Assembly (NCBI RefSeq): GCF_965641715.1
Contig: NZ_OZ282453.1
Reading direction: 5' to 3' (one strand)
Origin: Escherichia coli
Lineage (GTDB): Bacteria; Pseudomonadota; Gammaproteobacteria; Enterobacterales; Enterobacteriaceae
DNA: 64,000 nt
The stretch's first letter is position 1, and every line of letters starts with the position of its first letter. The position numbers and the translations under genes were made by a program. Positions 9,639-20,550 of the stretch are shown here, piece after piece. The notes below the pieces were generated by a model. The model was not told the DNA's origin. It was given only the letters and a program-made list of their open reading frames with translations, and did not search any database.

Positions 9639-9660
9639 AGTGTTGCCTTTTTGTTATCAA

Positions 9661-9690
9661 TAAAAAAGGCCCCCCGATTTGGGAGGCCTT
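9661..9690 (-). terminator. pheA attenuator (leader terminator)
   Basis: GC-rich hairpin plus T-run on the minus strand between pheL and pheA. Confidence 0.6.
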
Positions 9691-9736
9691 ATTGTTCGTC
9701 TTCGCATTCTGTTTCATACGACGAAACGCCTCCCAT

Positions 9737-9784
9737 TCAGGGGAAGGTAAAAAAGAATGCGAAGAAAAACGGTGTGTGTTTCAT
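9737..9784 (-). CDS. pheL: pheA operon leader peptide (Phe-rich)
   Basis: 15-codon ORF MKHTPFFFAFFFTFP with seven Phe codons, upstream of the attenuator hairpin; absent from the ORF track because it is short. Confidence 0.85.
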   Translation of the reverse strand: MKHTPFFFAFFFTFP

Positions 9785-9838
9785 GTTTGTTTCCTTAAGT
9801 GACTTTAGTACAGTACCCGTACTGTTTTCACGCTGTCA

Positions 9839-9865
9839 ACAAAAAACGCGCCCGAAGGTGCGTTG
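9839..9865. repeat. Prophage attL direct repeat (int-proximal)
   Basis: ACAAAAAACGCGCCCGAAGGTGCGTTG; matches 45803-45829 at 26 of 27 positions. Confidence 0.6.
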
Positions 9866-9951
9866 TAAAACCCACTGAATTCAATGTTTTCCCTTTGTTT
9901 TCAGTGGGTTTTGTTATTGGTGGGGGGTACTGATTACCCTATAAAACCCAC

Positions 9952-10974
9952 TTATGTGGATGAAATGTGGATGCCTCCTTTTAACGGATTAAGTGAAATT
10001 GCATCCTGGAGGAAATCAGGAGCGAGGTGCGCATAGGTCATAGTTTGCTGGATCGTGGCGTGCCCCATAATTCGCTGGAGCGTAAGTATATTTCCTCCAT
10101 TAATCATAAAGTGAGCTGCAAAGGTATGGCGTAGAACATGTACTGCCTGCCCTTTTGGTAGATCAGGTTTAACACTGCGAAGCACCTTGCGATATTCCTC
10201 ATAATTGACGTCAAACAAAAGGCCGGATTTCTTTGTTTTGATCTCGCTAACAACTTCATCAGAGACAGGAATAATTCGAACTTTTCCGTTTTTAGTTTTG
10301 TTAAACGTCACGCGGTTATTGATGATGTGTTCCGCGCGCAGATTTTTCGCTTCTCCCCATCTCGCACCAGTACTGAGACAAAGTAGCGTAATCCGCCGGG
10401 CATCACCGCTTACTGCATCCAGTAATTTGGCAATTTCTTCCGTGGTGAGATACGTCATTTCGGGTGATTTTCGTTTCAAAGAGGGGAGGGCGCGGAGCGG
10501 ATTTTCTCCGTGAAATTCCCCGGCATTTGCCAGGAGTGTAAACATTCCTCCGAGATCCGACTCATCACGCCGAACAGTAGACTCTTTTACTCCCAAAGAT
10601 AAACGGGAGCTTCGATAAGCGGCCATGAAACGAGCATTAATCTGGCTAACCCTTGGATCATTCATTTCTTTGATGATTTTTTTCAACCTGGTTAGAACGC
10701 CGTTAGCATATGGCTTATTGCGTCCACCCAATTCCCACCATAACGGAAGCAGATCTGAGAGATGACGTTGCTCTGTTGGCTTTTCAAGCCATTCCTTATC
10801 GTGCATGTGGCTGAGAACATAACGCTCAAAGGCCACTGCATCTGCCTTTTTCTTAAAAATCCGCTGAATCCGACGTCCACTTCGGCCACGCGGTCTAACA
10901 TCCACTTTATACCGTCCACCATCGAGTGCTTTAATTGCCATTGGCAAGCCCTCCGGTGAAACGAGGAAAGACAT
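9952..10974 (-). CDS. int: Phage tyrosine integrase
   Basis: 340 aa with C-terminal tyrosine recombinase catalytic region (HxLRHT...Y); immediately inside attL. Confidence 0.9.
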   Translation of the reverse strand: MSFLVSPEGLPMAIKALDGGRYKVDVRPRGRSGRRIQRIFKKKADAVAFERYVLSHMHDKEWLEKPTEQRHLSDLLPLWWELGGRNKPYANGVLTRLKKIIKEMNDPRVSQINARFMAAYRSSRLSLGVKESTVRRDESDLGGMFTLLANAGEFHGENPLRALPSLKRKSPEMTYLTTEEIAKLLDAVSGDARRITLLCLSTGARWGEAKNLRAEHIINNRVTFNKTKNGKVRIIPVSDEVVSEIKTKKSGLLFDVNYEEYRKVLRSVKPDLPKGQAVHVLRHTFAAHFMINGGNILTLQRIMGHATIQQTMTYAHLAPDFLQDAISLNPLKGGIHISST

Positions 10975-11007: not shown

Positions 11008-11325
11008 TTAACCAATTTTCCTTTCGGATGGGGGTAAATCCGTTGGTTCTTGCCCATAGTGTGCGAGAGCCGGAGCTATCTGCCCGGATTCAGGCGCAAT
11101 TTTTCCAGTCATAAACCACAACGCATATTTCTCAAATCTGGGGTTGTTTAGTATTTGCTCAATTACTTCAGCATTAGGGATAGTTTTACCGCTTTCATAT
11201 CTCCACAGAGCATCACGGTTTAAACCAAGCATTTTTGCTGTATCCGGGAGGCTAGTAAGTCTCTCGCTTTCACGCATGATTTTTATGCGCTCTCCAATAG
11301 TCATACGCATGTTGCAATTCTCCAA
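11008..11325 (-). CDS. P2 C-type immunity repressor
   Basis: About 100 aa with HTH and C-terminal WFMTGKIAPESGQIAPALAHYGQ, resembling P2 repressor C as recalled; divergent from the early operon. Confidence 0.8.
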   Translation of the reverse strand: MENCNMRMTIGERIKIMRESERLTSLPDTAKMLGLNRDALWRYESGKTIPNAEVIEQILNNPRFEKYALWFMTGKIAPESGQIAPALAHYGQEPTDLPPSERKIG

Positions 11326-11405
11326 CGTCTGTATTAATGTTTATACAAATGAGTTTGATTTGGGGCATCCGTCGCAAGAAATACCCCAAACAGGGAGATT
11401 ATCAC

Positions 11406-11732
11406 ATGAATGAAGAACTATTGAGGGCATTGTTTAAGATCCCAGACCCCATCACCGTCGATGAGTTTTCCCGCCGCACAGGTAAGACCGAATCAGCCGT
11501 AAGAAAGTTGGTAGAGCGTCGACTCATCCCTCTAACTACTGAGCGCGAGGTTTTAGGCGAGGAAGGGAGTTCGCGCCGTCTTCTCATCCTTTGGAATGAG
11601 TGGCTCGAAATGGTCTATGACGCAACGAAACAGCTTCCTCCTGAGCGTAAAGATTGGCGCAATCACTGGCTGAAGAAAGCCAAGAAGCTGGCGGAAGATT
11701 TGGGATTAGGTTTTCTTAATTTTGCTGCATGA
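11406..11732 (+). CDS. Putative Cox/Apl-like excisionase-regulator (first early gene)
   Basis: Position and orientation match P2 cox; small basic protein with a predicted DNA-binding fold. Start at internal ATG 11406; sequence similarity to Cox not established. Confidence 0.45.
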   Translation: MNEELLRALFKIPDPITVDEFSRRTGKTESAVRKLVERRLIPLTTEREVLGEEGSSRRLLILWNEWLEMVYDATKQLPPERKDWRNHWLKKAKKLAEDLGLGFLNFAA

Positions 11733-11750: not shown

Positions 11751-12092
11751 ATGAAACAGCAACGTAATTCACGCTTTCGTAATGGCGCTGAACGCCACGC
11801 TAACCGTTTCGCTACCAGCGCATCACGCAGCAACATCCGCTACAGCCTGAGTGATACACACGCAACGCCGGATGGCTACCCAGTAAAACAAATCGGCGAG
11901 CATGCCTGGCTGATTGAAAAAGCTGGAATCGTGGTCCACAAATGCCCACGCAATCCGTTTACCGGAAACCGCATTTTTGCATTGAGCTGCGGCGACAATC
12001 AGTTCGGGCAGGATTTCACATTGTACGAAGCGCTACGCACGGTTGATCGTCTGCTCCGCGGACAAAGTTTTATTAAACAGGCTGATTTATAA
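11751..12092 (+). CDS. Hypothetical early protein
   Basis: 113-aa ORF with RBS in the early operon; no recognised family. Confidence 0.5.
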   Translation: MKQQRNSRFRNGAERHANRFATSASRSNIRYSLSDTHATPDGYPVKQIGEHAWLIEKAGIVVHKCPRNPFTGNRIFALSCGDNQFGQDFTLYEALRTVDRLLRGQSFIKQADL

Positions 12093-12102
12093 CAGGTGCT
12101 TT

Positions 12103-12390
12103 ATGACCAAAGACCATGCACAAGGTGTATTTATCCGTTTTATTGATTTTCGCGGTGAACTGTTATTACGCGCATCCGCTATTGATGGAGTGGCTCCGGC
12201 GGGTAAAAACGGAGCCGACGAAGCCACTTACGTTTATCTGAACGGCACGCGACTGCTTGTGGAACTTCCGTACCAGACCGTACGAGAAATCATTAGCAAA
12301 GCTGAAAAAGCGCGCCAGGCTAATGGCAATGAACCCTATATCGAAATTATTTGCATGGATTCAGAAGCTGAAATCCAGAAAGCAGATTAA
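12103..12390 (+). CDS. Hypothetical early protein
   Basis: About 95-aa ORF from internal ATG 12103; tightly packed in the early operon. Confidence 0.45.
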   Translation: MTKDHAQGVFIRFIDFRGELLLRASAIDGVAPAGKNGADEATYVYLNGTRLLVELPYQTVREIISKAEKARQANGNEPYIEIICMDSEAEIQKAD

Positions 12391-12401: not shown

Positions 12402-12644
12402 ATGGGCAAAGAATATAAAACTCTCATTAACAAAGCACTTGAGCGTTTCTATTTTCGCTTAAGTGCATCAGGCGCTCATGCTGAACGTGCTGCCCGTGAC
12501 TCATTGACCAGGGCAATCCGGAGTCTGTATGACGTGGCTTTTTACGCTGATGATCTGGATGCACCTAACGAACTTTCCGAGCTGATCTGTGCCGCAGAAT
12601 GCGGGGAACATATTGAACCGTATAAGCTGGGGAATATCGCATGA
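12402..12644 (+). CDS. Hypothetical early protein
   Basis: 80-aa ORF in the early operon. Confidence 0.5.
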   Translation: MGKEYKTLINKALERFYFRLSASGAHAERAARDSLTRAIRSLYDVAFYADDLDAPNELSELICAAECGEHIEPYKLGNIA

Positions 12645-12754
12645 GTATATTTATCTCATGGCTTGTTCTGATTATTTCGGTGGTCTGCGCCATTGGGATT
12701 ATGCGAATTATTAATTCAGTGAAAAAGATCGAGCGTTTTTTCTCTGATGAATAA
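12641..12754 (+). CDS. Putative small single-pass membrane protein (37 aa)
   Basis: MSIFISWLVLIISVVCAIGIMRIINSVKKIERFFSDE; start overlaps the preceding stop (ATGA coupling); hydrophobic core; below the ORF-track size cutoff. Confidence 0.35.
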   Translation: MSIFISWLVLIISVVCAIGIMRIINSVKKIERFFSDE

Positions 12755-12846
12755 CGATACAAATAAAACATCAAATTAAATAAGAAAACGTGAAAACCAT
12801 CCGTATTAACGGAGGTATTCGCACACGTAAATAATGGAGATATAAA

Positions 12847-13263
12847 ATGAACGCAAAAGAAGAAGGCATTATCGACACATTAAAAAAAATATCAGAAGCG
12901 GAAGATGAAATGGCTAAAGATGACGTGAAGCGTAGCCAACATATGGCAGCACTTCACGCACTGACCATCGCAAAAATCACCGCTGACGCAGCCAAAATTA
13001 TTGAGGAACAGGGCAAAGAAATCGACACTCTTAAAACACAGTCAACAGTTGCAGCCATGAATCCGTCCAGCATTGGACGCCGCATTTACATTCTTGGTTC
13101 GGCAATAATGACGCAATACACCATTATTGCCGAACTGCACGGCAAATACCTGATAACGCCTTACCACACAAAAGAGTCAGAGCTTCTGACAAATCTCCGC
13201 CTGATAGAACGCTCTCAAGCTGTATTCATTGATGACGCGCAACGTGCCGTATTTAACGCATAG
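12847..13263 (+). CDS. Hypothetical protein in an AT-rich stretch (candidate moron)
   Basis: 138-aa ORF in a visibly AT-rich segment (about 12650-13260) that contrasts with flanking phage DNA; Lys/Glu-rich N-terminus. Confidence 0.5.
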   Translation: MNAKEEGIIDTLKKISEAEDEMAKDDVKRSQHMAALHALTIAKITADAAKIIEEQGKEIDTLKTQSTVAAMNPSSIGRRIYILGSAIMTQYTIIAELHGKYLITPYHTKESELLTNLRLIERSQAVFIDDAQRAVFNA

Positions 13264-13286
13264 GGTTACTGGACAAAGGGGGCGCA

Positions 13287-13490
13287 ATGGCAATTAAGCA
13301 TTTTCCCGTCGTTCGCTTTACCTCCAGAGGGCGCGAATACGAGGTCGACGAACGCCTGATTACCACTATCGACAAACATCGTTCGGAAAAGGATGCACAC
13401 CACATCTACCTCACTGACGGCACTTACTTCTGCGCCACCAACGTGGCGCGGGTGAATCTTATCCGACAGGTACAGGAGCCACACAGATGA
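13287..13490 (+). CDS. Hypothetical early protein
   Basis: 67-aa ORF; stop overlaps the next start. Confidence 0.45.
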   Translation: MAIKHFPVVRFTSRGREYEVDERLITTIDKHRSEKDAHHIYLTDGTYFCATNVARVNLIRQVQEPHR

Positions 13491-13753
13491 CCATTCTGGA
13501 CTACATCGCTACTCATCCGGGGTGTAGCGGCGGAGAGATCGCCGCAGCACTGAATACTCCAACCACAGCCATTAATGCTGAGTTACGCCAACTTTGGCGC
13601 GGCGGCTTAGTCATCAGAACAAACCGCAGCACAGGTGGTCGCGCTCGCAAAACTGGAGGCCAGGCTTCTTACCACGTAAACCCGATGCCGTTCGGGTGTA
13701 GCAATCCACTTACTCACATGTTTAACCAGCTACTGAAGGAAGCCAGAGCATGA
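13487..13753 (+). CDS. Putative winged-helix DNA-binding protein
   Basis: 88 aa; ...GCSGGEIAAALNTPTTAINAELRQLWRGGLV... resembles a winged HTH; translationally coupled to its neighbours. Confidence 0.5.
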   Translation: MTILDYIATHPGCSGGEIAAALNTPTTAINAELRQLWRGGLVIRTNRSTGGRARKTGGQASYHVNPMPFGCSNPLTHMFNQLLKEARA

Positions 13754-14049
13754 GCACCATCAACCACCAGAAGCTACGCGAACTGGCATTTGCCCTGCAA
13801 CGAATGGCAACGCCTCAAAAATTACTGGCATTTCGCGCAATGCTCTCGCCGTCTGCTGTGCTGGCATTGCTGGATGAGCTGGAGCACGCCAGAACCACGG
13901 CTCCTGCCATTCGCCTGACGCTCCATCATGAAATCGCTGATTTCTGCGCGACATTGGAGGCGCCAGGCGAACCGGAAACGCCGGAAGCAATACAGCAAGA
14001 GCCGCTGCAACGCATTGACAAGGTTTTTGATTTTTTTCTGAACCAGTAA
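13750..14049 (+). CDS. Hypothetical early protein
   Basis: 99-aa ORF overlapping the previous stop by 4 nt. Confidence 0.5.
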   Translation: MSTINHQKLRELAFALQRMATPQKLLAFRAMLSPSAVLALLDELEHARTTAPAIRLTLHHEIADFCATLEAPGEPETPEAIQQEPLQRIDKVFDFFLNQ

Positions 14050-14371
14050 GAAACCAGAGCATGCACACACAAAAAAACCGCTTGCCATGCCGCAATCAGT
14101 CAGGTTACATTTTCGCTGCACCTCATAAAACGGGTGCCGGGTTTCGCAGCCTGCTGACAACCAAAGCGCACAACCGCGCCAGCGGTTTTTTTGTGCGTAC
14201 TGTATTGCCACGTTTTTTTCGCGTCAGAATTATGGCGGGGCGTACGGGGCCGACTTCGGTCGGGCCGGGTTCTTTGGTTGCCGGTACTGCGAACCCCGTA
14301 CGTCTCGCCACCCACAGTTTCGCAGCTCTGGATGGTGAGTTTTCAAAACTTACAACCAAAGAGGCCACACC

Positions 14372-14602
14372 ATGGCAAACCGCAAACAGCACCGCGCTAT
14401 CGCGGAGCGTCGTCACATCCAGACTGAAATCAACCGCAGACTTTCCCGCGCATTCCGCGTCGCTAAAATCATGCACATCAATATGCTGCATGAGCGTAGC
14501 TGCGAACTTTCAAACCTCTACTCATCCGCTGTTTTCAGCTATCTGGCGGATGATCTGCGCGAGCTTCAACAGCTCATCCAGCAGCAAAACAAACTCCATT
14601 AA
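14372..14602 (+). CDS. Hypothetical early protein
   Basis: 76-aa basic ORF after a ~320-bp non-coding stretch. Confidence 0.45.
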   Translation: MANRKQHRAIAERRHIQTEINRRLSRAFRVAKIMHINMLHERSCELSNLYSSAVFSYLADDLRELQQLIQQQNKLH

Positions 14603-14674
14603 TTCCTGTTCCGGGCCTTTCCTGCACCTTGCGGCGGGAGGCCTTCGCACATCTGTAACAAGAGGATTGCCGCA

Positions 14675-15040
14675 ATGATTCTCGCCAACGACTTTCTTGA
14701 ATACCTGCTCAACACAGAGCGTGATCTTGCCGCTCGCGTACGTGATCGTTATGACATGTATCTGAAATCCCTGCCTGTACCGCAGCTCGCTGACGGAAAG
14801 ATTGTTATTGATGGTCGCTACATGATTGACAGCCACGAGGGAAATTACAGGCTTTACCGCATTGAAGGTGGCACCCCGTCCGTTATTGGCATTTACCAGC
14901 GCCCATCCTCTGCAATCGTCGATGTGATTGCCGACAGCATCCGCATCACACATCGCCATGCCGACACAGAAGACACCGTGCTGGAAATTCAGCGGCTGGC
15001 TGCCGTCTGCCGCGACACCCTGAATGGCATGACGAAGTAA
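14675..15040 (+). CDS. Hypothetical early protein
   Basis: 121-aa ORF immediately upstream of gene A. Confidence 0.5.
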   Translation: MILANDFLEYLLNTERDLAARVRDRYDMYLKSLPVPQLADGKIVIDGRYMIDSHEGNYRLYRIEGGTPSVIGIYQRPSSAIVDVIADSIRITHRHADTEDTVLEIQRLAAVCRDTLNGMTK

Positions 15041-15046
15041 ATCACT

Positions 15047-17869
15047 ATGACGGCAGAGTACATCAGGGACTGGCAACAACCGCGCCACGCAGTGGGACGT
15101 GAAGGAACGGGGATCCCCGTTCCTGAATCCGCGCTTTCCTCCTGGCTGGATGCCTACCGGGCAGAGAACGAGCGCCGCCAGGAAATGGCTGATGCGGCGT
15201 TCTCCGCCACGCCGCTGGGCAACCTGATTAATAAAAGCCTGGATGCACAGGAAAAACAGGACAAAACCATCACACTGGCAGGAGACGCCAGAAAACAGGT
15301 ACGCGGTGCGGTGGATGAAGCCATGGCCTCGCTGCGCCTGCTGCCGTCCTATCTGCGCGATCCGCTTATTCGCCACCTCTCCTTCCTGCGCAAAAAACAG
15401 GAAGCCGATCGCCGGAAAGGCAAAAAGAGCTGGCAGGCTGAACGCTACGCGCGCGGAACCCTGCGCAAAATATTCGAACGTCTGGACCGCACCGACCACC
15501 GCTGGCTGACACCGGGTTATCGCTCCCTTGCCGGACGCGAACGCCTGGATGATTTGCTTTACCTGCCGCAGCTCAACAAGCACCAGATACAGACGCTGGC
15601 CACCATGACGGCGGCGATGTTCAGCAGCACCTTCGAAAAACTCTGCGATGGCTTTGGCGCGACTGATGGCGAGCTGACCATGGATGTAACGCTGAAGGCG
15701 TATCAGATGCTGGCCCGCATGGCGTTACACCTGCACGCCATGCCTCCGCATTATGATGCACTGACAACAGACAAAGACCGGAGGAACGAACCGGACACGG
15801 AGCTGCTGCCGGGCGCAATCCTTCGCCTGACCTGTGCGGAATGGTGGAAACGCAAACTGTGGCTGTTACGTTGCGAGTGGCGGGAAGAACAACTCCGCGC
15901 CGCCTGTCTGGTTTCCAGAAAAACATCGCCCTATCTGAGCCAGGACGCGTTAAGCGAGTTTCGCGCACAGCGCGAGAAAACACGCGATTTCCTGAAAAGT
16001 TTCATGCTGGAAAACGAAGACGGGTTCACGATTGATCTCGAGACGGTGTATTACGCGGGAGTAAGTAACCCGGTTCATCGTAAGGCAGAAATGATGGCCA
16101 CCATGAAGGGGCTGGAACTTCTGGCCGAAGCCCGTGGCGACAAAGCGGTGTTTCTGACTGTCACCTGCCCGTCAAAATACCACGCCACAACAGAGAACGG
16201 TCATCCGAATCCCAAATGGAACGGGGCCACCATGCGCGACTCCAGCGATTACCTGGTTAACACGTTTTTTGCGGCGGTCCGCAAGAAACTGAACCGCGAC
16301 GGCCTGCGCTGGTATGGCATCCGCACGGTGGAGCCTCACCATGACGGCACCGTGCACTGGCATATGATGGTCTTTGCTCATCCGGAAGAAATCGACACCA
16401 TTGTGTCCCACACCCGCGATATTGCCATTCAGGAAGATCGTCACGAGCTGGGTGATGATATTACCCCACGCTTTAAGGCGGAGTACGTCGACGGCTCAAA
16501 AGGCACACCGACCAGCTACATCGCCACCTACATCGGGAAAAACCTGGACAGCCGTGCCGTGGATGGCATCGACCCGAAAACGGGCAAGCCACGCGTTGAC
16601 CACGAAACCGGAAAATCAATGGCCGAGAGCGTGGAACGCGCCATCGGCTGGGCGCGCCTTCATCGGGTCCGCCAGTTCCAGTTCTTTGGCATCCCCTCCC
16701 GTCAGGTGTGGCGTGAACTGCGCCGCCTTGCCAGCCAGATGGCTCGCAACCCGGAAGGACCGCAACGGCTGAAGGATGACGCAATGGACGCGGTTCTTGC
16801 TGCCGCTGATGCCGGATGTTTTGCCACCTACATAGAGAAACAGGGCGGCGTACTTGTTCCACGCAAGGACTACCTGATTCGCACCGCCTACGACCTCGCA
16901 GATGAGCTGAACGATTACGGTGAACAGAGCGTACAGATTTACGGGATCTGGTCACCGCTCATCGGGGAGTCTTCCCGCGTATGCACGCATCCGGACAACT
17001 GGAAGCTGGTAAGACGCAAACCGGAAGCGGAAGACAGCGCCCGCGAAAATGGTTTTGACCTTCAGGGCGGCCCTGCCGCCCCTTGGACTCGTGGCAATAA
17101 CTGTCCCCGTGTACAGGAAACAGGCAACAGCGGGACAGAACAGTCGAAAGAACGGCCAGCACCGTGGCCGCAGCTTCCTGACGGCGTTGACGTGAACGAA
17201 TGGATGCGCTCACTGAAACGGCACGAACGCCGGGCGCTGATGCGTTCGCTTCGTGACAAACAGGCAAAAAACAGCAGTGATGAAATGCAGAGCTGGACAC
17301 AGAGCCGCAAACAGCCACGGCCTTTGCCTGATAACCACGAATTACTCGCTAAAGAATGGCGGGAGTCTGCTGAATCTCTCGGCCTGCATATCGGTGAACA
17401 ACAGATGCAGCACCTGTTACGGGGCGGCAGTCTGTACGTTGACGGCAGCATCATTGCACCGCAGGGATTTGAAATTGTACGCAAACCGGATACCCGCCCG
17501 GACAGCCGAATCACGCAGCTCTGGCAGCGCCTGAGCCGTAATCATGGCGTAAGCAGCACGGAGATCCGCCATAACCCGGTCGCCAGCTATCTGGCACAGC
17601 TGGGGGCATCAGACCCTGAAGCCGCCGCACGCCTGGCATCCACACTTCAGCAGGACCAGAACACCATGAAAACACCCGTTACCGTGCTTTCTGACATGCT
17701 GCGCGCCATCCGCGACGCAGAGCACGCACAGAGAATCAGTGAAACCACTGAACGCGCCAGCCGCAAAGCAGACCTGCTGCGGGGTGGCCTGACCAGTGGA
17801 AACAAAAAACAGACAGAAACGGGATTCACAAATCCCATAAATGAGCAAAAAACGTGCCGCGATATATGA
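15047..17869 (+). CDS. Rolling-circle replication initiator (P2 gpA-like endonuclease)
   Basis: 940 aa with a HUH-type motif (VHWHMMVF); position after the early genes as in P2. Longer than P2 A as I recall it. Confidence 0.85.
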   Translation: MTAEYIRDWQQPRHAVGREGTGIPVPESALSSWLDAYRAENERRQEMADAAFSATPLGNLINKSLDAQEKQDKTITLAGDARKQVRGAVDEAMASLRLLPSYLRDPLIRHLSFLRKKQEADRRKGKKSWQAERYARGTLRKIFERLDRTDHRWLTPGYRSLAGRERLDDLLYLPQLNKHQIQTLATMTAAMFSSTFEKLCDGFGATDGELTMDVTLKAYQMLARMALHLHAMPPHYDALTTDKDRRNEPDTELLPGAILRLTCAEWWKRKLWLLRCEWREEQLRAACLVSRKTSPYLSQDALSEFRAQREKTRDFLKSFMLENEDGFTIDLETVYYAGVSNPVHRKAEMMATMKGLELLAEARGDKAVFLTVTCPSKYHATTENGHPNPKWNGATMRDSSDYLVNTFFAAVRKKLNRDGLRWYGIRTVEPHHDGTVHWHMMVFAHPEEIDTIVSHTRDIAIQEDRHELGDDITPRFKAEYVDGSKGTPTSYIATYIGKNLDSRAVDGIDPKTGKPRVDHETGKSMAESVERAIGWARLHRVRQFQFFGIPSRQVWRELRRLASQMARNPEGPQRLKDDAMDAVLAAADAGCFATYIEKQGGVLVPRKDYLIRTAYDLADELNDYGEQSVQIYGIWSPLIGESSRVCTHPDNWKLVRRKPEAEDSARENGFDLQGGPAAPWTRGNNCPRVQETGNSGTEQSKERPAPWPQLPDGVDVNEWMRSLKRHERRALMRSLRDKQAKNSSDEMQSWTQSRKQPRPLPDNHELLAKEWRESAESLGLHIGEQQMQHLLRGGSLYVDGSIIAPQGFEIVRKPDTRPDSRITQLWQRLSRNHGVSSTEIRHNPVASYLAQLGASDPEAAARLASTLQQDQNTMKTPVTVLSDMLRAIRDAEHAQRISETTERASRKADLLRGGLTSGNKKQTETGFTNPINEQKTCRDI

Positions 17870-17945: not shown

Positions 17946-18905
17946 ATGAAAATTTGTATCGACGACGGCTCCACCAACATCAAGCTGGCATGGACTGAGA
18001 ACGGCGAACGCCGCAACGCCATCAGCCCGAACAGCTTCAAGTCGGAATGGTCTGCGCCGTTCGGTGGCTCGCAGCCCGCGAACTACATGCTTGATGGCGT
18101 GCGCTATGGTTTTGATCCGGTCAGCGATCGCTTTGTCCAGACGACCGACACGCAATACCAGTACAGCGATGTGAATGTCATTGCCATTCATCACGCGCTG
18201 GTCAAATCAGGCATCACGCCACAGGAGGTGGATGTGGTTGTCACCCTGCCATTGAGCGAGTATTTCGACACAAACGCACAGCCGGACATGGCCAACATCA
18301 GCCGCAAAAAAGCGAACGTTATGCGCCCGGTGGAGTACCAGAACGGCGAAACATTCACTATCCGTAACGTACGGGTTATGCCTGAATCCATTCCGGCTGG
18401 CTTTAAAGCACTGGCTGACATGAGTCCGCTTGAATCCCTGCTGATTGTGGATTTGGGCGGAACCACACTGGATGTGGCAAAGGTTCAGGGGCAACTGGCA
18501 GGTATCAGCCAGGTGTTTTGCGATCCACACGTAGGCGTTTCCCTGATGGCCGATGCCGTACTGTCGGTGATGGCCACTAACGGTATGCGTATCAGTCACC
18601 ACATCGCCAATACCATTATCGAACATCGCCATGATGAAGCCTGGTTGCGCCAGCACATCCACAATGACGCGCATTACGCCAGCCTGATGGCGGTTATTCG
18701 TGAAAAGGAAGAAACACTGAAACAACGCGTGATCCGCGCGCTGGCGGTTTTTTCGGGTTACGGGCGGGTGATGGTTGTCGGTGGCGGGGCGGAGATTGTG
18801 GCACCCGCTATCCGCGAAGCCTGCGGAGTTAATGCGACTTTCATCGCGGACGGGGTGCCACAGTTTGCTCTGGTTAATGGGCTGTACGCAATGGACAAGG
18901 AGTAA
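17946..18905 (+). CDS. ParM/StbA-like actin-type segregation ATPase
   Basis: N-terminus MKICIDDGSTNIKLAW... and later ...YSDVNVIAIHHAL... closely resemble plasmid R1 ParM (MLVFIDDGSTNIKLQW...YSDVNVVAVHHAL) as recalled. Confidence 0.85.
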   Translation: MKICIDDGSTNIKLAWTENGERRNAISPNSFKSEWSAPFGGSQPANYMLDGVRYGFDPVSDRFVQTTDTQYQYSDVNVIAIHHALVKSGITPQEVDVVVTLPLSEYFDTNAQPDMANISRKKANVMRPVEYQNGETFTIRNVRVMPESIPAGFKALADMSPLESLLIVDLGGTTLDVAKVQGQLAGISQVFCDPHVGVSLMADAVLSVMATNGMRISHHIANTIIEHRHDEAWLRQHIHNDAHYASLMAVIREKEETLKQRVIRALAVFSGYGRVMVVGGGAEIVAPAIREACGVNATFIADGVPQFALVNGLYAMDKE

Positions 18906-18909
18906 ACCA

Positions 18910-19221
18910 ATGACGACTCCAACCAGACGGATAAGTTTCTATCTGAAGCCCGCCGCCGTCAAGAACGAAGGTGAAGCATGCGCCTGGCTGGACAGCCTTA
19001 CACCAGAAGCGCGCAAAAGCGGCCAACGCGTGGCTTTTCTGGCCGGGCTGGCACTTCTGAAAATGAATCCGGCAGAGGCTTACCGACTGGCTGCATGGGC
19101 TGATGATGAAGCGTTATCAGTGACACAAACCAGGACAGAACGCCCCGCGTCACAGCCAGTATCAACCGCACAGATAACCAGTCAGATGGCCGGAAATATC
19201 CGGGCGTTATTTCCCGAATAA
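18910..19221 (+). CDS. ParR/StbB-like centromere-binding adaptor
   Basis: 103 aa from ATG 18910 (AAGGAG RBS); RRISFYLKP...LDSLTPEARKSGQRVAFLAGLAL and C-terminal NIRALFPE parallel R1 ParR; 4 nt after the ParM stop. Confidence 0.7.
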   Translation: MTTPTRRISFYLKPAAVKNEGEACAWLDSLTPEARKSGQRVAFLAGLALLKMNPAEAYRLAAWADDEALSVTQTRTERPASQPVSTAQITSQMAGNIRALFPE

Positions 19222-19284
19222 CACAACATCAGGGCGCATCCGCCCTGATGACTTTAACCCGGGAACATAAACAAGGGGGACACA

Positions 19285-19620
19285 ATGCAACGCATTGACA
19301 GAGAAAAAGCGCAGCGACTGATTGAGCGGATGGAAGCGCTGGCGAAAGAAGAAAATGTCAACATCCAAAAAATAGCTGAATGTGGCCAGATAGTTCTTCG
19401 TCGTGAAAAAGACCTCAAACAACTGATGTCTGGCGAAACCAGCAAAACATGGACTTCAGGTGAGGAGACGATTTATTGCAGCTTCTGCAATAAATCCCAG
19501 TACGAAGTCACAAAGGTGATTGCCGGACCGTCTGTTTACATCTGCAATGAGTGCGTTGATTTGTGCAATGAAGTTATCAGGAGAGAAGTGACAGACCATG
19601 AAGAAAAAACGCATGAATGA
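19285..19620 (+). CDS. Protein with C-terminal ClpX-type C4 zinc-binding domain
   Basis: C-terminal [39 protein letters not shown] is near-identical to the ClpX N-domain as recalled; N-terminal ~65 aa unrelated and helical. Confidence 0.75.
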
Positions 19621-19786
19621 CGAATTTGACGGCTTTTAATTTTATCGGGGCGCACTGTCGCCCTGCATGGAGAAAAACAATAAAAAAGATGAATAACTGC
19701 TCATGTCAGACGCGCTGCGGGCAAGTCTGGCACCCTGCCCTGTCTCCGCAAAGGCTGTTGTCTTAACACGACAGAGTATGCCAGCA

Positions 19787-20194
19787 TTAAATATAATCTT
19801 CTTCGTAGTCGCTGATTAATTCATTGCCATAATCAGACAGCAATTTCAAAGCAAAGGTAACTTCCTCAAGGGTAGCTATCCCCATTGCTGAAAACACCGT
19901 TAATTTAACCAGCAGCAGGGAGTTTGAAAGTTCGGAAGAGTTCATCATTAAAAATATTGATGCAGCCTGAAAAGCTGTGCGTTTATTCCCATCATGAAAG
20001 GCATGAGCCTTGGCTATACCAATCAAATACATAGCAGCCAGAGCATGAATATCATCAACCCCTTCATAGTAGTGTAGTGTCCTGACGCGATTTAAAGCAC
20101 CTTCAAGTAGCCCGTCATTGGCATTTCCGCTCTGGGGTAAAGTTTCAGCATGGATACGTTCTACTTGTTCTTTTGACAAAAACACTATGTCCAT
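19787..20194 (-). CDS. Doc-family (Fic-fold) toxin
   Basis: 135 aa with Fic/Doc active-site motif HAFHDGNKRTAF; downstream of and overlapping the antitoxin gene. Confidence 0.8.
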   Translation of the reverse strand: MDIVFLSKEQVERIHAETLPQSGNANDGLLEGALNRVRTLHYYEGVDDIHALAAMYLIGIAKAHAFHDGNKRTAFQAASIFLMMNSSELSNSLLLVKLTVFSAMGIATLEEVTFALKLLSDYGNELISDYEEDYI

Positions 20195-20550
20195 CAGTTA
20201 TCCTCAAGCTTTTTAATGATATCCGCATGTTTTTCTCTTGTACGCTTCATTGCATCTTCAAAAGACAATCCTTTTTTTCTCTGTGCGACAAGAGCTGGAT
20301 GACGTTTTTCCAGATCTCTCACTGCATTTATTAAGAGTGGTTGCTTCATTTTGTTTATTTGATCCCGCAGTTTTTTGGTTTTGCCAAGGACAGCCCGTAT
20401 TTCAGGACTAAGATCAGAACCAGCAAGAACAACATCCTTCCCTCCCTGCGCCGTGATAACGACACTGCCACCGGAAGAAAGGTAATCCAGAATTTCACTC
20501 AGGTTCTCACGAAATTCATCATCAGTTACAGTTTTCATATTCATTTCCAT
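20194..20550 (-). CDS. Phd/YefM-like antitoxin with C-terminal extension
   Basis: N-terminus ...MKTVTDDEFRENLSEILDYL...VVITAQGGKDVVLA fits the Phd/YefM pattern; stop overlaps the Doc start. Confidence 0.65.
   Translation of the reverse strand: MEMNMKTVTDDEFRENLSEILDYLSSGGSVVITAQGGKDVVLAGSDLSPEIRAVLGKTKKLRDQINKMKQPLLINAVRDLEKRHPALVAQRKKGLSFEDAMKRTREKHADIIKKLEDN

What the first reader, a model, noticed from the sequence alone, without database searches (positions are those of the whole stretch)
12641..13263. AT-rich insertion in the early operon with two uncharacterised ORFs
About 600 bp of visibly AT-rich sequence interrupts the compact early operon. It encodes a 37-aa putative single-pass membrane peptide and a 138-aa protein with no recognisable family. 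The compositional contrast suggests horizontally acquired cargo; small membrane proteins in this position are often superinfection-exclusion or anti-defence factors.
Basis: partly seen in the sequence, partly recalled or inferred. Interest (0 to 1): 0.5.

Follow-up and report, generated by a model that had tools for sequence, protein, structure and literature searches.

The report
Swappable accessory gene in P88-like prophage
The flagged stretch is two things: a small membrane-protein gene found in every phage of this P2-related family, and next to it an optional, uncharacterised 138-residue gene that occurs as very different versions inside almost identical prophages. It is an ordinary kind of phage accessory gene whose function is still unknown.

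Summary
The window holds a P88-like (Xuanwuvirus, Peduoviridae) prophage beside pheL/pheA. The region is AT-rich (GC 0.408 against a window mean of 0.517), but the dip is confined to 12641-12900 (GC 0.33).

The two ORFs have different histories.
- **orf37** is a single-pass membrane peptide. Its ATG overlaps the stop codon of the DUF4754 gene, and it is under purifying selection. With its A-rich 92-nt spacer it is present in every P88-like phage examined, so it is core, not cargo.
- **orf138** alone is the variable part. It is a 445-bp one-gene cassette (12828-13272) with its own Shine-Dalgarno sequence.

In an unbiased sample of 80 loci the slot was empty in 39, held orf138 in 37, and held an unrelated-looking 87-aa gene in 4. 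In complete E. coli genomes orf138 occupies 879 of 1375 such loci.

orf138 alleles fall into classes of 54-60% amino-acid identity with saturated synonymous divergence, set in flanks that are 97-100% identical. The predicted protein is an acidic helical hairpin plus an SH3-like barrel. It matches no Pfam, NCBIfam or PADLOC model.

The most likely role is a dispensable early-operon binding protein involved in phage-host or phage-phage conflict. That role is inferred, not shown.

The parts
12402..12644 (+). DUF4754 gene (80 aa), the conserved upstream neighbour; its TGA stop overlaps the orf37 ATG (ATGA)
   Evidence: Pfam PF15946 at E 4.5e-53. Most loci are 96-99% identical to the window at protein level, a few 76-86%. 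dN/dS 0.10.
12641..12754 (+). orf37: a core 37-aa single-pass membrane peptide (hydrophobic residues 2-24, then K28/K29/R32)
   Evidence: ORF. Present in 14 of 14 P88-like phage records and at 1375 places in 1256 E. coli genomes. dN/dS 0.23 over 36 unique alleles. Allele list.
12736..12741 (+). T6 run in the orf37 3' end. About a tenth of loci have T5, which changes the C-terminal tail (mostly 45-aa variants; 30 aa in phage Chuche)
12755..12846 (+). A-rich 92-nt spacer (GC 0.30), the largest gap in the operon. Its first ~73 nt are conserved whether or not orf138 follows
12800..12813 (+). Conserved 5-bp hairpin TCCGT-ATTA-ACGGA. Its 3' arm runs into an invariant GGAGG
   Evidence: Variants TCCGC...GCGGA (compensatory C:G pair, 31 loci) and ...ATGGA (G.U possible only on the + strand RNA, 9 loci). 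Function unknown.
12828..13272 (+). The polymorphic cassette: Shine-Dalgarno (GGAG, 12836-12839), orf138 and a 9-nt tail. It is absent from P88, P88_4B11, Chuche, 520873 and 503458
   Evidence: Alignment A1. Slot states. No flanking direct repeats seen.
12847..13263 (+). orf138: accessory 138-aa soluble protein, PHROG 9338
   Evidence: Always lies between orf37 and orf67 wherever both flanks are on the contig, in 84 homologue-bearing loci. dN 0.187, dS 0.496, dN/dS 0.38.
12853..13059 (+). N-terminal antiparallel helical hairpin (residues 3-71, pI 5.0). This is the most variable part, especially residues 10-45 around the hairpin tip
   Evidence: AlphaFold2 pLDDT 90-98. Variability and dN/dS by region. 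pI.
13081..13227 (+). C-terminal five-stranded SH3-like small beta-barrel (residues 79-127, pI 8.7)
13287..13490 (+). orf67: conserved downstream flank of the slot (PHROG 3459)

Best explanation
The flagged 623 bp is not one insertion. It joins a core segment to a variable one.

(1) orf37 and its A-rich spacer are an ancestral part of the early (lytic) operon of P88-like phages. orf37 encodes a 37-aa single-pass membrane peptide whose start codon overlaps the stop codon of the highly conserved DUF4754 gene. Its low GC follows from T-rich hydrophobic codons and the A-rich spacer, not from foreign origin.

(2) orf138 is a one-gene cassette sitting in a small variable slot between orf37 and orf67. 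The slot is empty, holds orf138, or more rarely holds an 87-aa gene. The orf138 alleles form deeply diverged classes that share conserved 5' and 3' ends, so they can be swapped by homologous recombination into otherwise near-identical prophages.

The protein is a small non-enzymatic two-domain binder: an acidic helical hairpin plus a basic SH3-like barrel. The proposed mechanism is inferred:
- It is transcribed with the early operon on infection or induction, not in the lysogen.
- It is dispensable for growth.
- It binds and modulates a variable host or rival-element target, acting as a counter-defence, host-takeover or anti-satellite factor.
- The variable hairpin sets its specificity.

My confidence by step: core versus accessory split about 0.9; non-essential early-operon binding protein about 0.7; conflict or counter-defence role about 0.3.
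For: - **Indel limits.** They lie at 12828-13272 in an alignment with P88, P88_4B11, Chuche and 569R5.
- **orf37 plus spacer.** Found at 1375 places in E. coli genomes against 879 for the cassette. In phage records the counts are 14 of 14 against 4 of 14.
- **Unbiased sample through DUF4754.** 39 empty, 37 with orf138, 4 with an 87-aa PHROG 21900 gene.
- **Position.** orf138 homologues always sit in the same place.
- **Dispensability.** P88, which lacks orf138, and phiSM, which has it, are both active phages (PMC5285337 abstract; PMC6456863).
- **Identity profile.** Flanks are 97-100% identical and fall to 48-72% across 12860-13160. Between classes dS is 0.85 overall and 1.1-1.7 in the centre, with dN/dS 0.37. 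The last 33 codons have dS of only 0.29. Six alleles are N/C-domain mosaics.
- **The gene is real.** 82 of 84 homologue-bearing loci yield an intact, in-frame ORF; one exception is frameshifted (L035) and one is cut by a contig end (L074). dN/dS is below 1, and the AlphaFold2 model has pLDDT 85.
- **Fold.** Helical hairpin plus SH3-like barrel. No catalytic or defence family matches.
- **Operon membership.** Same strand, 92-nt and 23-nt gaps, own SD, no terminator.
Against: - There are no expression data, so co-transcription is inferred from layout alone.
- A weak sigma-70-like match (TTAACG-18-AATAAT, 12806-12835, 9 of 12 positions) lies just upstream of orf138 in this window.
- No binding partner is known.
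- dN/dS gives no clear sign of positive selection. It is 0.37-0.73, and the only value above 1 rests on very few changes. An arms-race reading is therefore not demonstrated.
- Deep allele classes could simply reflect import from diverged phage lineages.
- The SH3-like fold and the helical hairpin are generic and do not point to a function.
- orf138 presence shows some linkage to the downstream MarR variant: 22 of 37 occupied loci carry the type-A MarR against 8 of 39 empty loci. This may hint at a role internal to the phage instead.
Confidence: 0.55

Rival explanations
1. One reading: the whole ~600-bp AT-rich block, both ORFs, is horizontally acquired cargo, and the small membrane peptide is a superinfection-exclusion or anti-defence factor.
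For: The GC trough is real, at the 0.7th percentile. The spacer is the largest gap in the operon. orf37 is a plausible membrane peptide.
Against: orf37 and the spacer are in every relative, with or without orf138. The orf37 start overlaps the stop codon of a 96-99% conserved core gene. GC3 of both ORFs (0.42 and 0.44) equals that of upstream operon genes (0.40-0.41). orf37 has no promoter of its own, and it sits in the repressed early operon, so expression in the lysogen is not expected.
Confidence: 0.07
2. orf138 is a classical moron. It would be expressed from its own promoter in the lysogen and benefit the host, for example through defence against other phages or superinfection exclusion.
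For: It is accessory, preceded by an AT-rich spacer, and has a weak promoter-like site at 12806-12835. Prophage variable genes are often defensive (PMC9122126 abstract; bioRxiv 10.1101/2024.10.15.618418).
Against: The -10 element (AATAAT) reads AATAAC in most alleles. The scan found 6 promoter-like sites against 4.4 expected by chance. There is no terminator before or after the gene, and only 23 nt separate it from orf67. No PADLOC model matches. The slot is not one of the described P2 defence hotspots.
Confidence: 0.12
3. orf138 is a modulator internal to the phage. It would act as an optional adaptor that tunes the phage's own early programme, such as replication, the MarR-like regulator, or the isrK/C4 derepression module downstream. 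Its allele classes would match variants of a phage partner rather than a host target.
For: It lies among early regulatory and replication genes. Presence is enriched with one MarR variant, 22 of 37 against 8 of 39. SH3/KOW-like barrels often bind nucleic acids or components of the transcription machinery (established knowledge of the fold; hits).
Against: Allele classes assort freely with repressor, cox, orf95, Ead and orf121 variants. The MarR link can be explained by physical linkage, since the genes are about 220 bp apart. Phages without orf138 are fully functional.
Confidence: 0.2
4. orf138 is an evolutionarily neutral or decaying ORF with no function.
For: It has the highest dN (0.187) and dN/dS (0.38) of the operon, and 0.73 within class 1. 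It is absent from many functional phages.
Against: 82 of 84 homologue-bearing loci yield an intact ORF. dN/dS stays below 1 even though dS is saturated between classes. The two-domain fold is predicted with confidence. The gene is retained in E. albertii and Citrobacter.
Confidence: 0.05

Closest known systems
Non-essential genes of P2/186 early operons (P2 orf78-orf83; 186 fil and dhr). Recalled from my own knowledge of the P2/186 literature; not tested here.
   Same: They are small genes in the same orientation inside the Pe-driven early operon, between cox/apl and the replication gene A. They are dispensable for growth and mostly of unknown or host-modulating function.
   Different: There is no sequence similarity. 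tblastn of orf37 and orf138 against 50,697 phage records hit only P88-like phages. orf138 is polymorphic for presence and occurs as deeply diverged allele classes.
Phage morons (for example lambda bor/lom, HK97 gp15). The definition is taken from general knowledge.
   Same: A single extra gene is present in some relatives and absent from others at a precise junction between conserved genes.
   Different: Classical morons carry their own promoter and terminator and are expressed in the lysogen. Here there is no terminator, no conserved promoter, and no compositional contrast with upstream neighbours.
P2-like defence hotspots: old/tin between gpA and portal, Z/fun, and tail-to-C repressor (bioRxiv 10.1101/2024.10.15.618418; PMC9122126)
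   Same: It is a variable locus in a P2-like prophage flanked by conserved core genes, with alleles exchanged by local recombination.
   Different: The location is different, inside the early operon between orf37 and orf67. It holds one small gene rather than multi-gene systems, only three states were seen, and there are no PADLOC matches. In this window the canonical gpA-portal hotspot carries ParM/StbB, a ClpX-zinc-finger protein and Phd/Doc.
SH3-like small beta-barrel domains (KOW, Tudor, chromo, PWWP)
   Different: Sequence identity is 5-17%, and there is no Pfam KOW, Tudor or SH3 match. The similarity is at fold level only and carries no functional inference.
PHROG 9338 and PHROG 21900 (uncharacterised phage protein families)
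   Same: orf138 is a full-length member of PHROG 9338 (E 6e-80). The alternative 87-aa cargo is PHROG 21900 (E 6e-58).
   Different: Neither family has a known function. A relationship between the two through the helical hairpin is only hinted at (hhalign probability 20%).

Membership tests
PHROG 9338 (unknown function) | Full-length match to the family HMM | tested here: met
   E 6e-80, residues 1-138 matched to profile positions 1-138 of 138.
Accessory (presence/absence) phage gene | Absent from otherwise collinear close relatives at a precise junction | tested here: met
   The 445-bp indel at 12828-13272. 39 of 80 loci empty. 879 against 1375 places in E. coli genomes.
Accessory (presence/absence) phage gene | Dispensable for phage viability | tested here: met
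   P88, which lacks it, is inducible and lytic (PMC5285337; PMC6456863). This is evidence from the literature, not an experiment on this prophage.
Classical moron | Own promoter and terminator, giving autonomous expression in the lysogen | tested here: not met
   There is only a 9-of-12 promoter-like match, whose -10 is not conserved across alleles, and no terminator-like site on the + strand flanking the gene. Expression itself cannot be tested here.
Classical moron | Composition distinct from neighbouring phage genes | tested here: inconclusive
   orf138 has GC 0.446 and GC3 0.439. Upstream genes are 0.46-0.51 and 0.40-0.51. Downstream genes are 0.52-0.58 and 0.53-0.65.
Known anti-phage defence systems (PADLOC-DB v2) | Match to a defence-protein HMM | tested here: not met
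   No family at E<=1 for orf37, orf138 or seven neighbouring genes.
Described P2-like variable hotspots | Location between gpA and portal, at Z/fun, or between tail genes and the C repressor | tested here: not met
   The slot lies between orf37 and orf67 inside the early operon, upstream of gpA.
Superinfection-exclusion membrane proteins (for orf37) | Membrane localisation | tested here: met
   Judged from sequence only: a 23-residue hydrophobic segment followed by a basic cluster, GRAVY 1.22.
Superinfection-exclusion membrane proteins (for orf37) | Expressed from the prophage in the lysogen and blocks incoming phage | not testable with these tools
   The layout argues against it. The gene start overlaps the preceding stop codon inside the repressor-controlled early operon, and no promoter is evident.
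Diversity-generating retroelement target | A template repeat copy of the variable region in the same element (normally with a nearby reverse transcriptase, which was not searched for) | tested here: not met
   No direct or inverted repeat involves 12860-13160 within 9000-46000. Divergence includes saturated synonymous change, which is typical of old alleles.
KOW/Tudor/SH3 domain families | Five-stranded small-barrel fold | tested here: met
KOW/Tudor/SH3 domain families | Sequence-profile membership | tested here: not met
   No Pfam hit in 36 family members. The DUF5517 hit appears in only 2 of 36 and is below threshold.

The most novel reading that the evidence does not exclude
The slot between orf37 and orf67 is an undescribed fourth variable locus of P2-like (P88-type) phages. 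On this reading it is a counter-defence or anti-satellite slot inside the early operon. PHROG 9338 proteins would be a new family of small inhibitors, with the hypervariable helical-hairpin tip setting which host immune protein or P4-like satellite factor is neutralised. The hairpin-only 87-aa PHROG 21900 gene would be a minimal version of the same weapon.
Probability: 0.2. Interest if true: 0.6.

Novelty: new member of a known kind. Interest (0 to 1): 0.3.

Why it matters
P88-like prophages occur in about a quarter of complete E. coli genomes (1256 of 5426), including O157:H7, ST131 and ETEC lineages. A gene that is optional, sits in the first genes expressed on induction, and is kept as deeply diverged, recombining allele classes inside near-identical prophages is a reasonable candidate for a determinant of phage-host or phage-satellite compatibility. 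If so, it would add an early-operon locus to the known P2 hotspots. It would also give a small, easily tested protein family of 136-138 aa with two natural allele classes and natural knock-outs. As it stands it is an uncharacterised accessory gene, which is common in temperate phages.

The practical corrections for the scan are two:
- A GC trough does not mark the cargo here. The AT-rich part is the core part.
- A presence/absence comparison does mark the cargo.

Tried and rejected
- **Sequence or profile against the PDB.** Nothing below E 0.03, and those hits were designed helical proteins.
- **Pfam DUF5517 hit** (E 0.006). It is spurious: below the gathering threshold and seen in 2 of 36 members.
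- **Promoter in the spacer driving orf138.** Rejected as a conserved feature because the -10 differs in most alleles.
- **Antisense sRNA over the orf138 start.** This used a minus-strand promoter-like site at 12895-12868 and the hairpin at 12813-12800 as terminator. Rejected: the -10 lies in non-conserved codons (ATTATC here, ATCATC in the 569R5 allele), nine loci weaken the minus-strand stem, and the hairpin is also conserved in phages without orf138.
- **DGR-type hypermutation.** Rejected because there is no template repeat and synonymous sites are saturated.
- **Pervasive positive selection.** Not supported by NG86 counts.
- **Rfam.** Nothing in 12641-13263. The hits at 14118-14315 are outside the finding.
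- **Literature searches.** DUF4754, DUF4761, the WP accessions, PHROG 9338, Xuanwuvirus and CP-933T turned up nothing on these genes.
- **Distant homologues P0091 and P0092.** They lie on short contigs. The P0092 contigs carry a derepression gene downstream, as P2-like early operons do; the P0091 contig (794 bp) shows no usable context. No new functional clue came from either.

Full report
**Context.** The window is an E. coli chromosome segment. A prophage sits beside the Phe leader and pheA (Rfam Phe_leader at 9660-9785; identical layout in strain MIN10). The prophage order is as follows:
- integrase, 9952-10974 (-)
- C-type repressor, 11008-11325 (-)
- early operon on the + strand:
  - cox, 11403-11732
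  - DUF4761, 11751-12092
  - orf95, 12103-12390
  - DUF4754, 12402-12644
  - orf37, 12641-12754
  - orf138, 12847-13263
  - orf67, 13287-13490
  - MarR-like, 13487-13753
  - Ead-like, 13750-14049
  - an isrK/C4 RNA region
  - orf121
  - gpA, 15047-17869

DNA similarity places it with phage P88 and relatives (Xuanwuvirus, Peduoviridae).

**Checking the observation.** Both ORFs lie exactly at the stated coordinates. The 623 bp have GC 0.408 against a window mean of 0.517, the 0.7th percentile of equal-sized windows. The trough is narrow. orf37 has GC 0.351 and the spacer 0.304, and 12641-12900 averages 0.33. orf138 overall has GC 0.446 and GC3 0.439, matching the upstream genes orf95 and DUF4754 (GC3 0.40-0.41). 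The real compositional step lies after orf138, where downstream genes have GC3 0.53-0.65. So the AT-richness is real, but it mostly reflects a hydrophobic peptide gene and an A-rich spacer.

**What is insertion and what is core.** An alignment with four phages puts the indel at 12828-13272 (445 bp). Phages that lack it read ...GGTATTCGCACACG|CCAAGGAGGCGTA-ATG(orf67). The window reads ...CACACG|TAAATAATGGAGATATAAA-ATG...orf138...TAGGGTTACTGGA|CAAAGGGGGCGCA-ATG(orf67). The cassette therefore carries its own Shine-Dalgarno sequence and leaves that of orf67 intact.

orf37 and the first ~73 nt of the spacer are conserved in all relatives:
- 14 of 14 P88-like records in the phage collection have orf37 against 4 of 14 with orf138.
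- In 5,426 complete E. coli genomes the orf37-spacer segment occurs at 1375 places (1256 genomes) and the cassette at 879 places (835 genomes).
- In 80 IMG/VR loci retrieved through the neighbouring DUF4754 gene, and so unbiased for the slot, 39 were empty, 37 held orf138, and 4 held a different 87-aa gene of PHROG 21900.
- All 84 homologue-bearing loci with both flanks on the contig had orf138 between orf37 and orf67.

Neither ORF has a relative in any other phage among 50,697 records. P88 lacks orf138 and phiSM has it, and both are active phages (PMC5285337; PMC6456863). orf138 is therefore dispensable.

**orf37.** The sequence is MSIFISWLVLIISVVCAIGIMRIINSVKKIERFFSDE, a 23-residue hydrophobic helix followed by a basic patch. 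Its ATG overlaps the DUF4754 stop codon (ATGA) in every locus. dN/dS is 0.23 over 36 unique alleles, so it is a real coding gene. The last few residues vary. A T6/T5 run at 12736-12741 changes the C-terminal tail in about a tenth of loci, mostly to 45-aa variants and to 30 aa in phage Chuche. Its function is unknown. Its position in the repressed early operon argues against classical superinfection exclusion by the prophage.

**orf138 evolution.** Against prophages whose flanking genes are 97-100% identical, identity falls to 48-72% across 12860-13160 and returns to 100% by 13250. The unique alleles form three clusters at 75% amino-acid identity. The two main classes are 54-60% identical to each other.

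| Gene or comparison | dN | dS | dN/dS |
|---|---|---|---|
| orf138, all alleles | 0.187 | 0.496 | 0.38 |
| Neighbouring genes | 0.03-0.07 | 0.19-0.34 | 0.10-0.26 |
| orf138, between classes, whole gene | 0.312 | 0.85 | 0.37 |
| orf138, between classes, centre | – | 1.1-1.7 | – |
| orf138, between classes, last 33 codons | 0.127 | 0.29 | 0.43 |

Six alleles combine a foreign N-half with a window-type C-half. This pattern indicates old allele lineages moved as a cassette by homologous recombination through conserved ends. It does not indicate hypermutation: there is no template repeat. It does not indicate demonstrable positive selection either, since regional dN/dS is 0.2-0.6 and the single value above 1 rests on few changes. 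82 of 84 homologue-bearing loci yield an intact ORF; one exception is frameshifted (L035) and one is cut by a contig end (L074). The family is narrow. Only 17 cluster representatives appear among 1.8 billion, from Escherichia, E. albertii and Citrobacter, and all are annotated as hypothetical.

**Mechanism.**
- Shown: the gene is optional, intact, under purifying selection and diverged by class. It lies in the operon's orientation with its own SD and without a terminator.
- Inferred: it is co-transcribed from the early promoter on infection or induction. It acts as a non-enzymatic binding protein whose variable hairpin determines specificity. A role in conflict with host defences, rival phages or P4-like satellites is the most attractive reading of an optional early gene kept as deeply diverged, recombining classes, but nothing here tests it.

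An alternative that keeps the same biochemistry is a phage-internal adaptor. The only hint for that is linkage to the MarR-like variant, 22 of 37 against 8 of 39, which proximity can explain.

**Comparison with what is known.** The slot is not one of the described P2-like hotspots, which are old/tin between gpA and portal, Z/fun, and tail-to-C (bioRxiv 10.1101/2024.10.15.618418; PMC9122126). It resembles a moron in being one extra gene at a precise junction. It fails the promoter-and-terminator criterion. It resembles the dispensable small genes of P2/186 early operons in position (my own knowledge) but shares no sequence similarity with them. No paper in the searchable library mentions these genes.

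**Verdict.** The cargo is orf138 alone. The AT-rich membrane-peptide gene is core. This is an ordinary class of feature, an uncharacterised phage accessory gene, with one moderately interesting property: deep, recombining allele classes in a previously undescribed early-operon slot.

Noticed in passing
window 14105-14315 (+): Rfam finds isrK (14118-14192, 65.9 bits) and a C4 antisense RNA (14228-14315, 87.1 bits). Both lie inside the mechanical 205-aa ORF at 14061-14678, which RefSeq annotates as 'ash family protein'. This is a P1/P7-style C4-controlled antirepressor module inside a P2-like early operon. Related prophages carry a 'derepression protein' at this position instead.
   Followed up: partly
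window 17946-20550: The canonical P2 hotspot between gpA and the portal gene carries ParM/StbA (17946-18905), a StbB-like plasmid stability protein (18775-19221), a ClpX-type zinc-finger protein (19285-19620), and a Phd/YefM antitoxin with a Fic/Doc toxin on the minus strand (20194-20550 and 19787-20194). That is plasmid-partition and toxin-antitoxin cargo rather than old/tin.
   Followed up: partly
window 12800-12813: A conserved 5-bp hairpin (TCCGT-ATTA-ACGGA) lies in the orf37-orf138 spacer. It shows a compensatory T:A to C:G change in 31 loci and a variant compatible with G.U pairing on the + strand in 9. Its 3' arm runs into an invariant GGAGG. It is present whether or not orf138 follows. 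The function is unknown; it could be an RNA stability or translational element.
   Followed up: partly
window 12736-12741: A T6 homopolymer lies in the 3' end of orf37. T5 variants in about a tenth of related loci shift the frame and replace the last residues, mostly giving a 45-aa product, or 30 aa in phage Chuche. Whether this is real variation or homopolymer sequencing error was not resolved.
   Followed up: no
window 12171-12230 (inside orf95): A second local divergence patch. Identity to otherwise 88-98% identical prophages falls to 63-70% over about 60 bp in the middle of orf95.
   Followed up: no
L117 3170-3900 (also L137, L140, L141): A third state of the slot. An 87-aa (possibly 105-aa) basic helical protein of PHROG 21900 replaces orf138 between orf37 and orf67. 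Its exact sequence was seen on 431 contigs in the public collection.
   Followed up: partly
proteins P0071 and P0075 (Escherichia albertii): These orf138 homologues carry tandem expansions of a heptapeptide-like motif (DTGLNLS / DTRLNLP) in the linker between the hairpin and the barrel, giving 149-156 aa.
   Followed up: no
window 32521-32916 and 33254-36352: Three tandem 132-nt repeats lie at 32521-32916. Nested inverted repeats follow (361-nt arms at 34288-34648 and 35025-35385; outer 65-nt arms at 33254 and 36288) in an AT-rich stretch. These probably mark a tail-fibre region with an invertible segment.
   Followed up: no
window 9660-10974: The prophage integrase gene ends about 170 bp from the pheA leader (pheL), so the attachment site lies next to pheL. 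The arrangement is the same in E. coli O126:H45 MIN10.
   Followed up: partly
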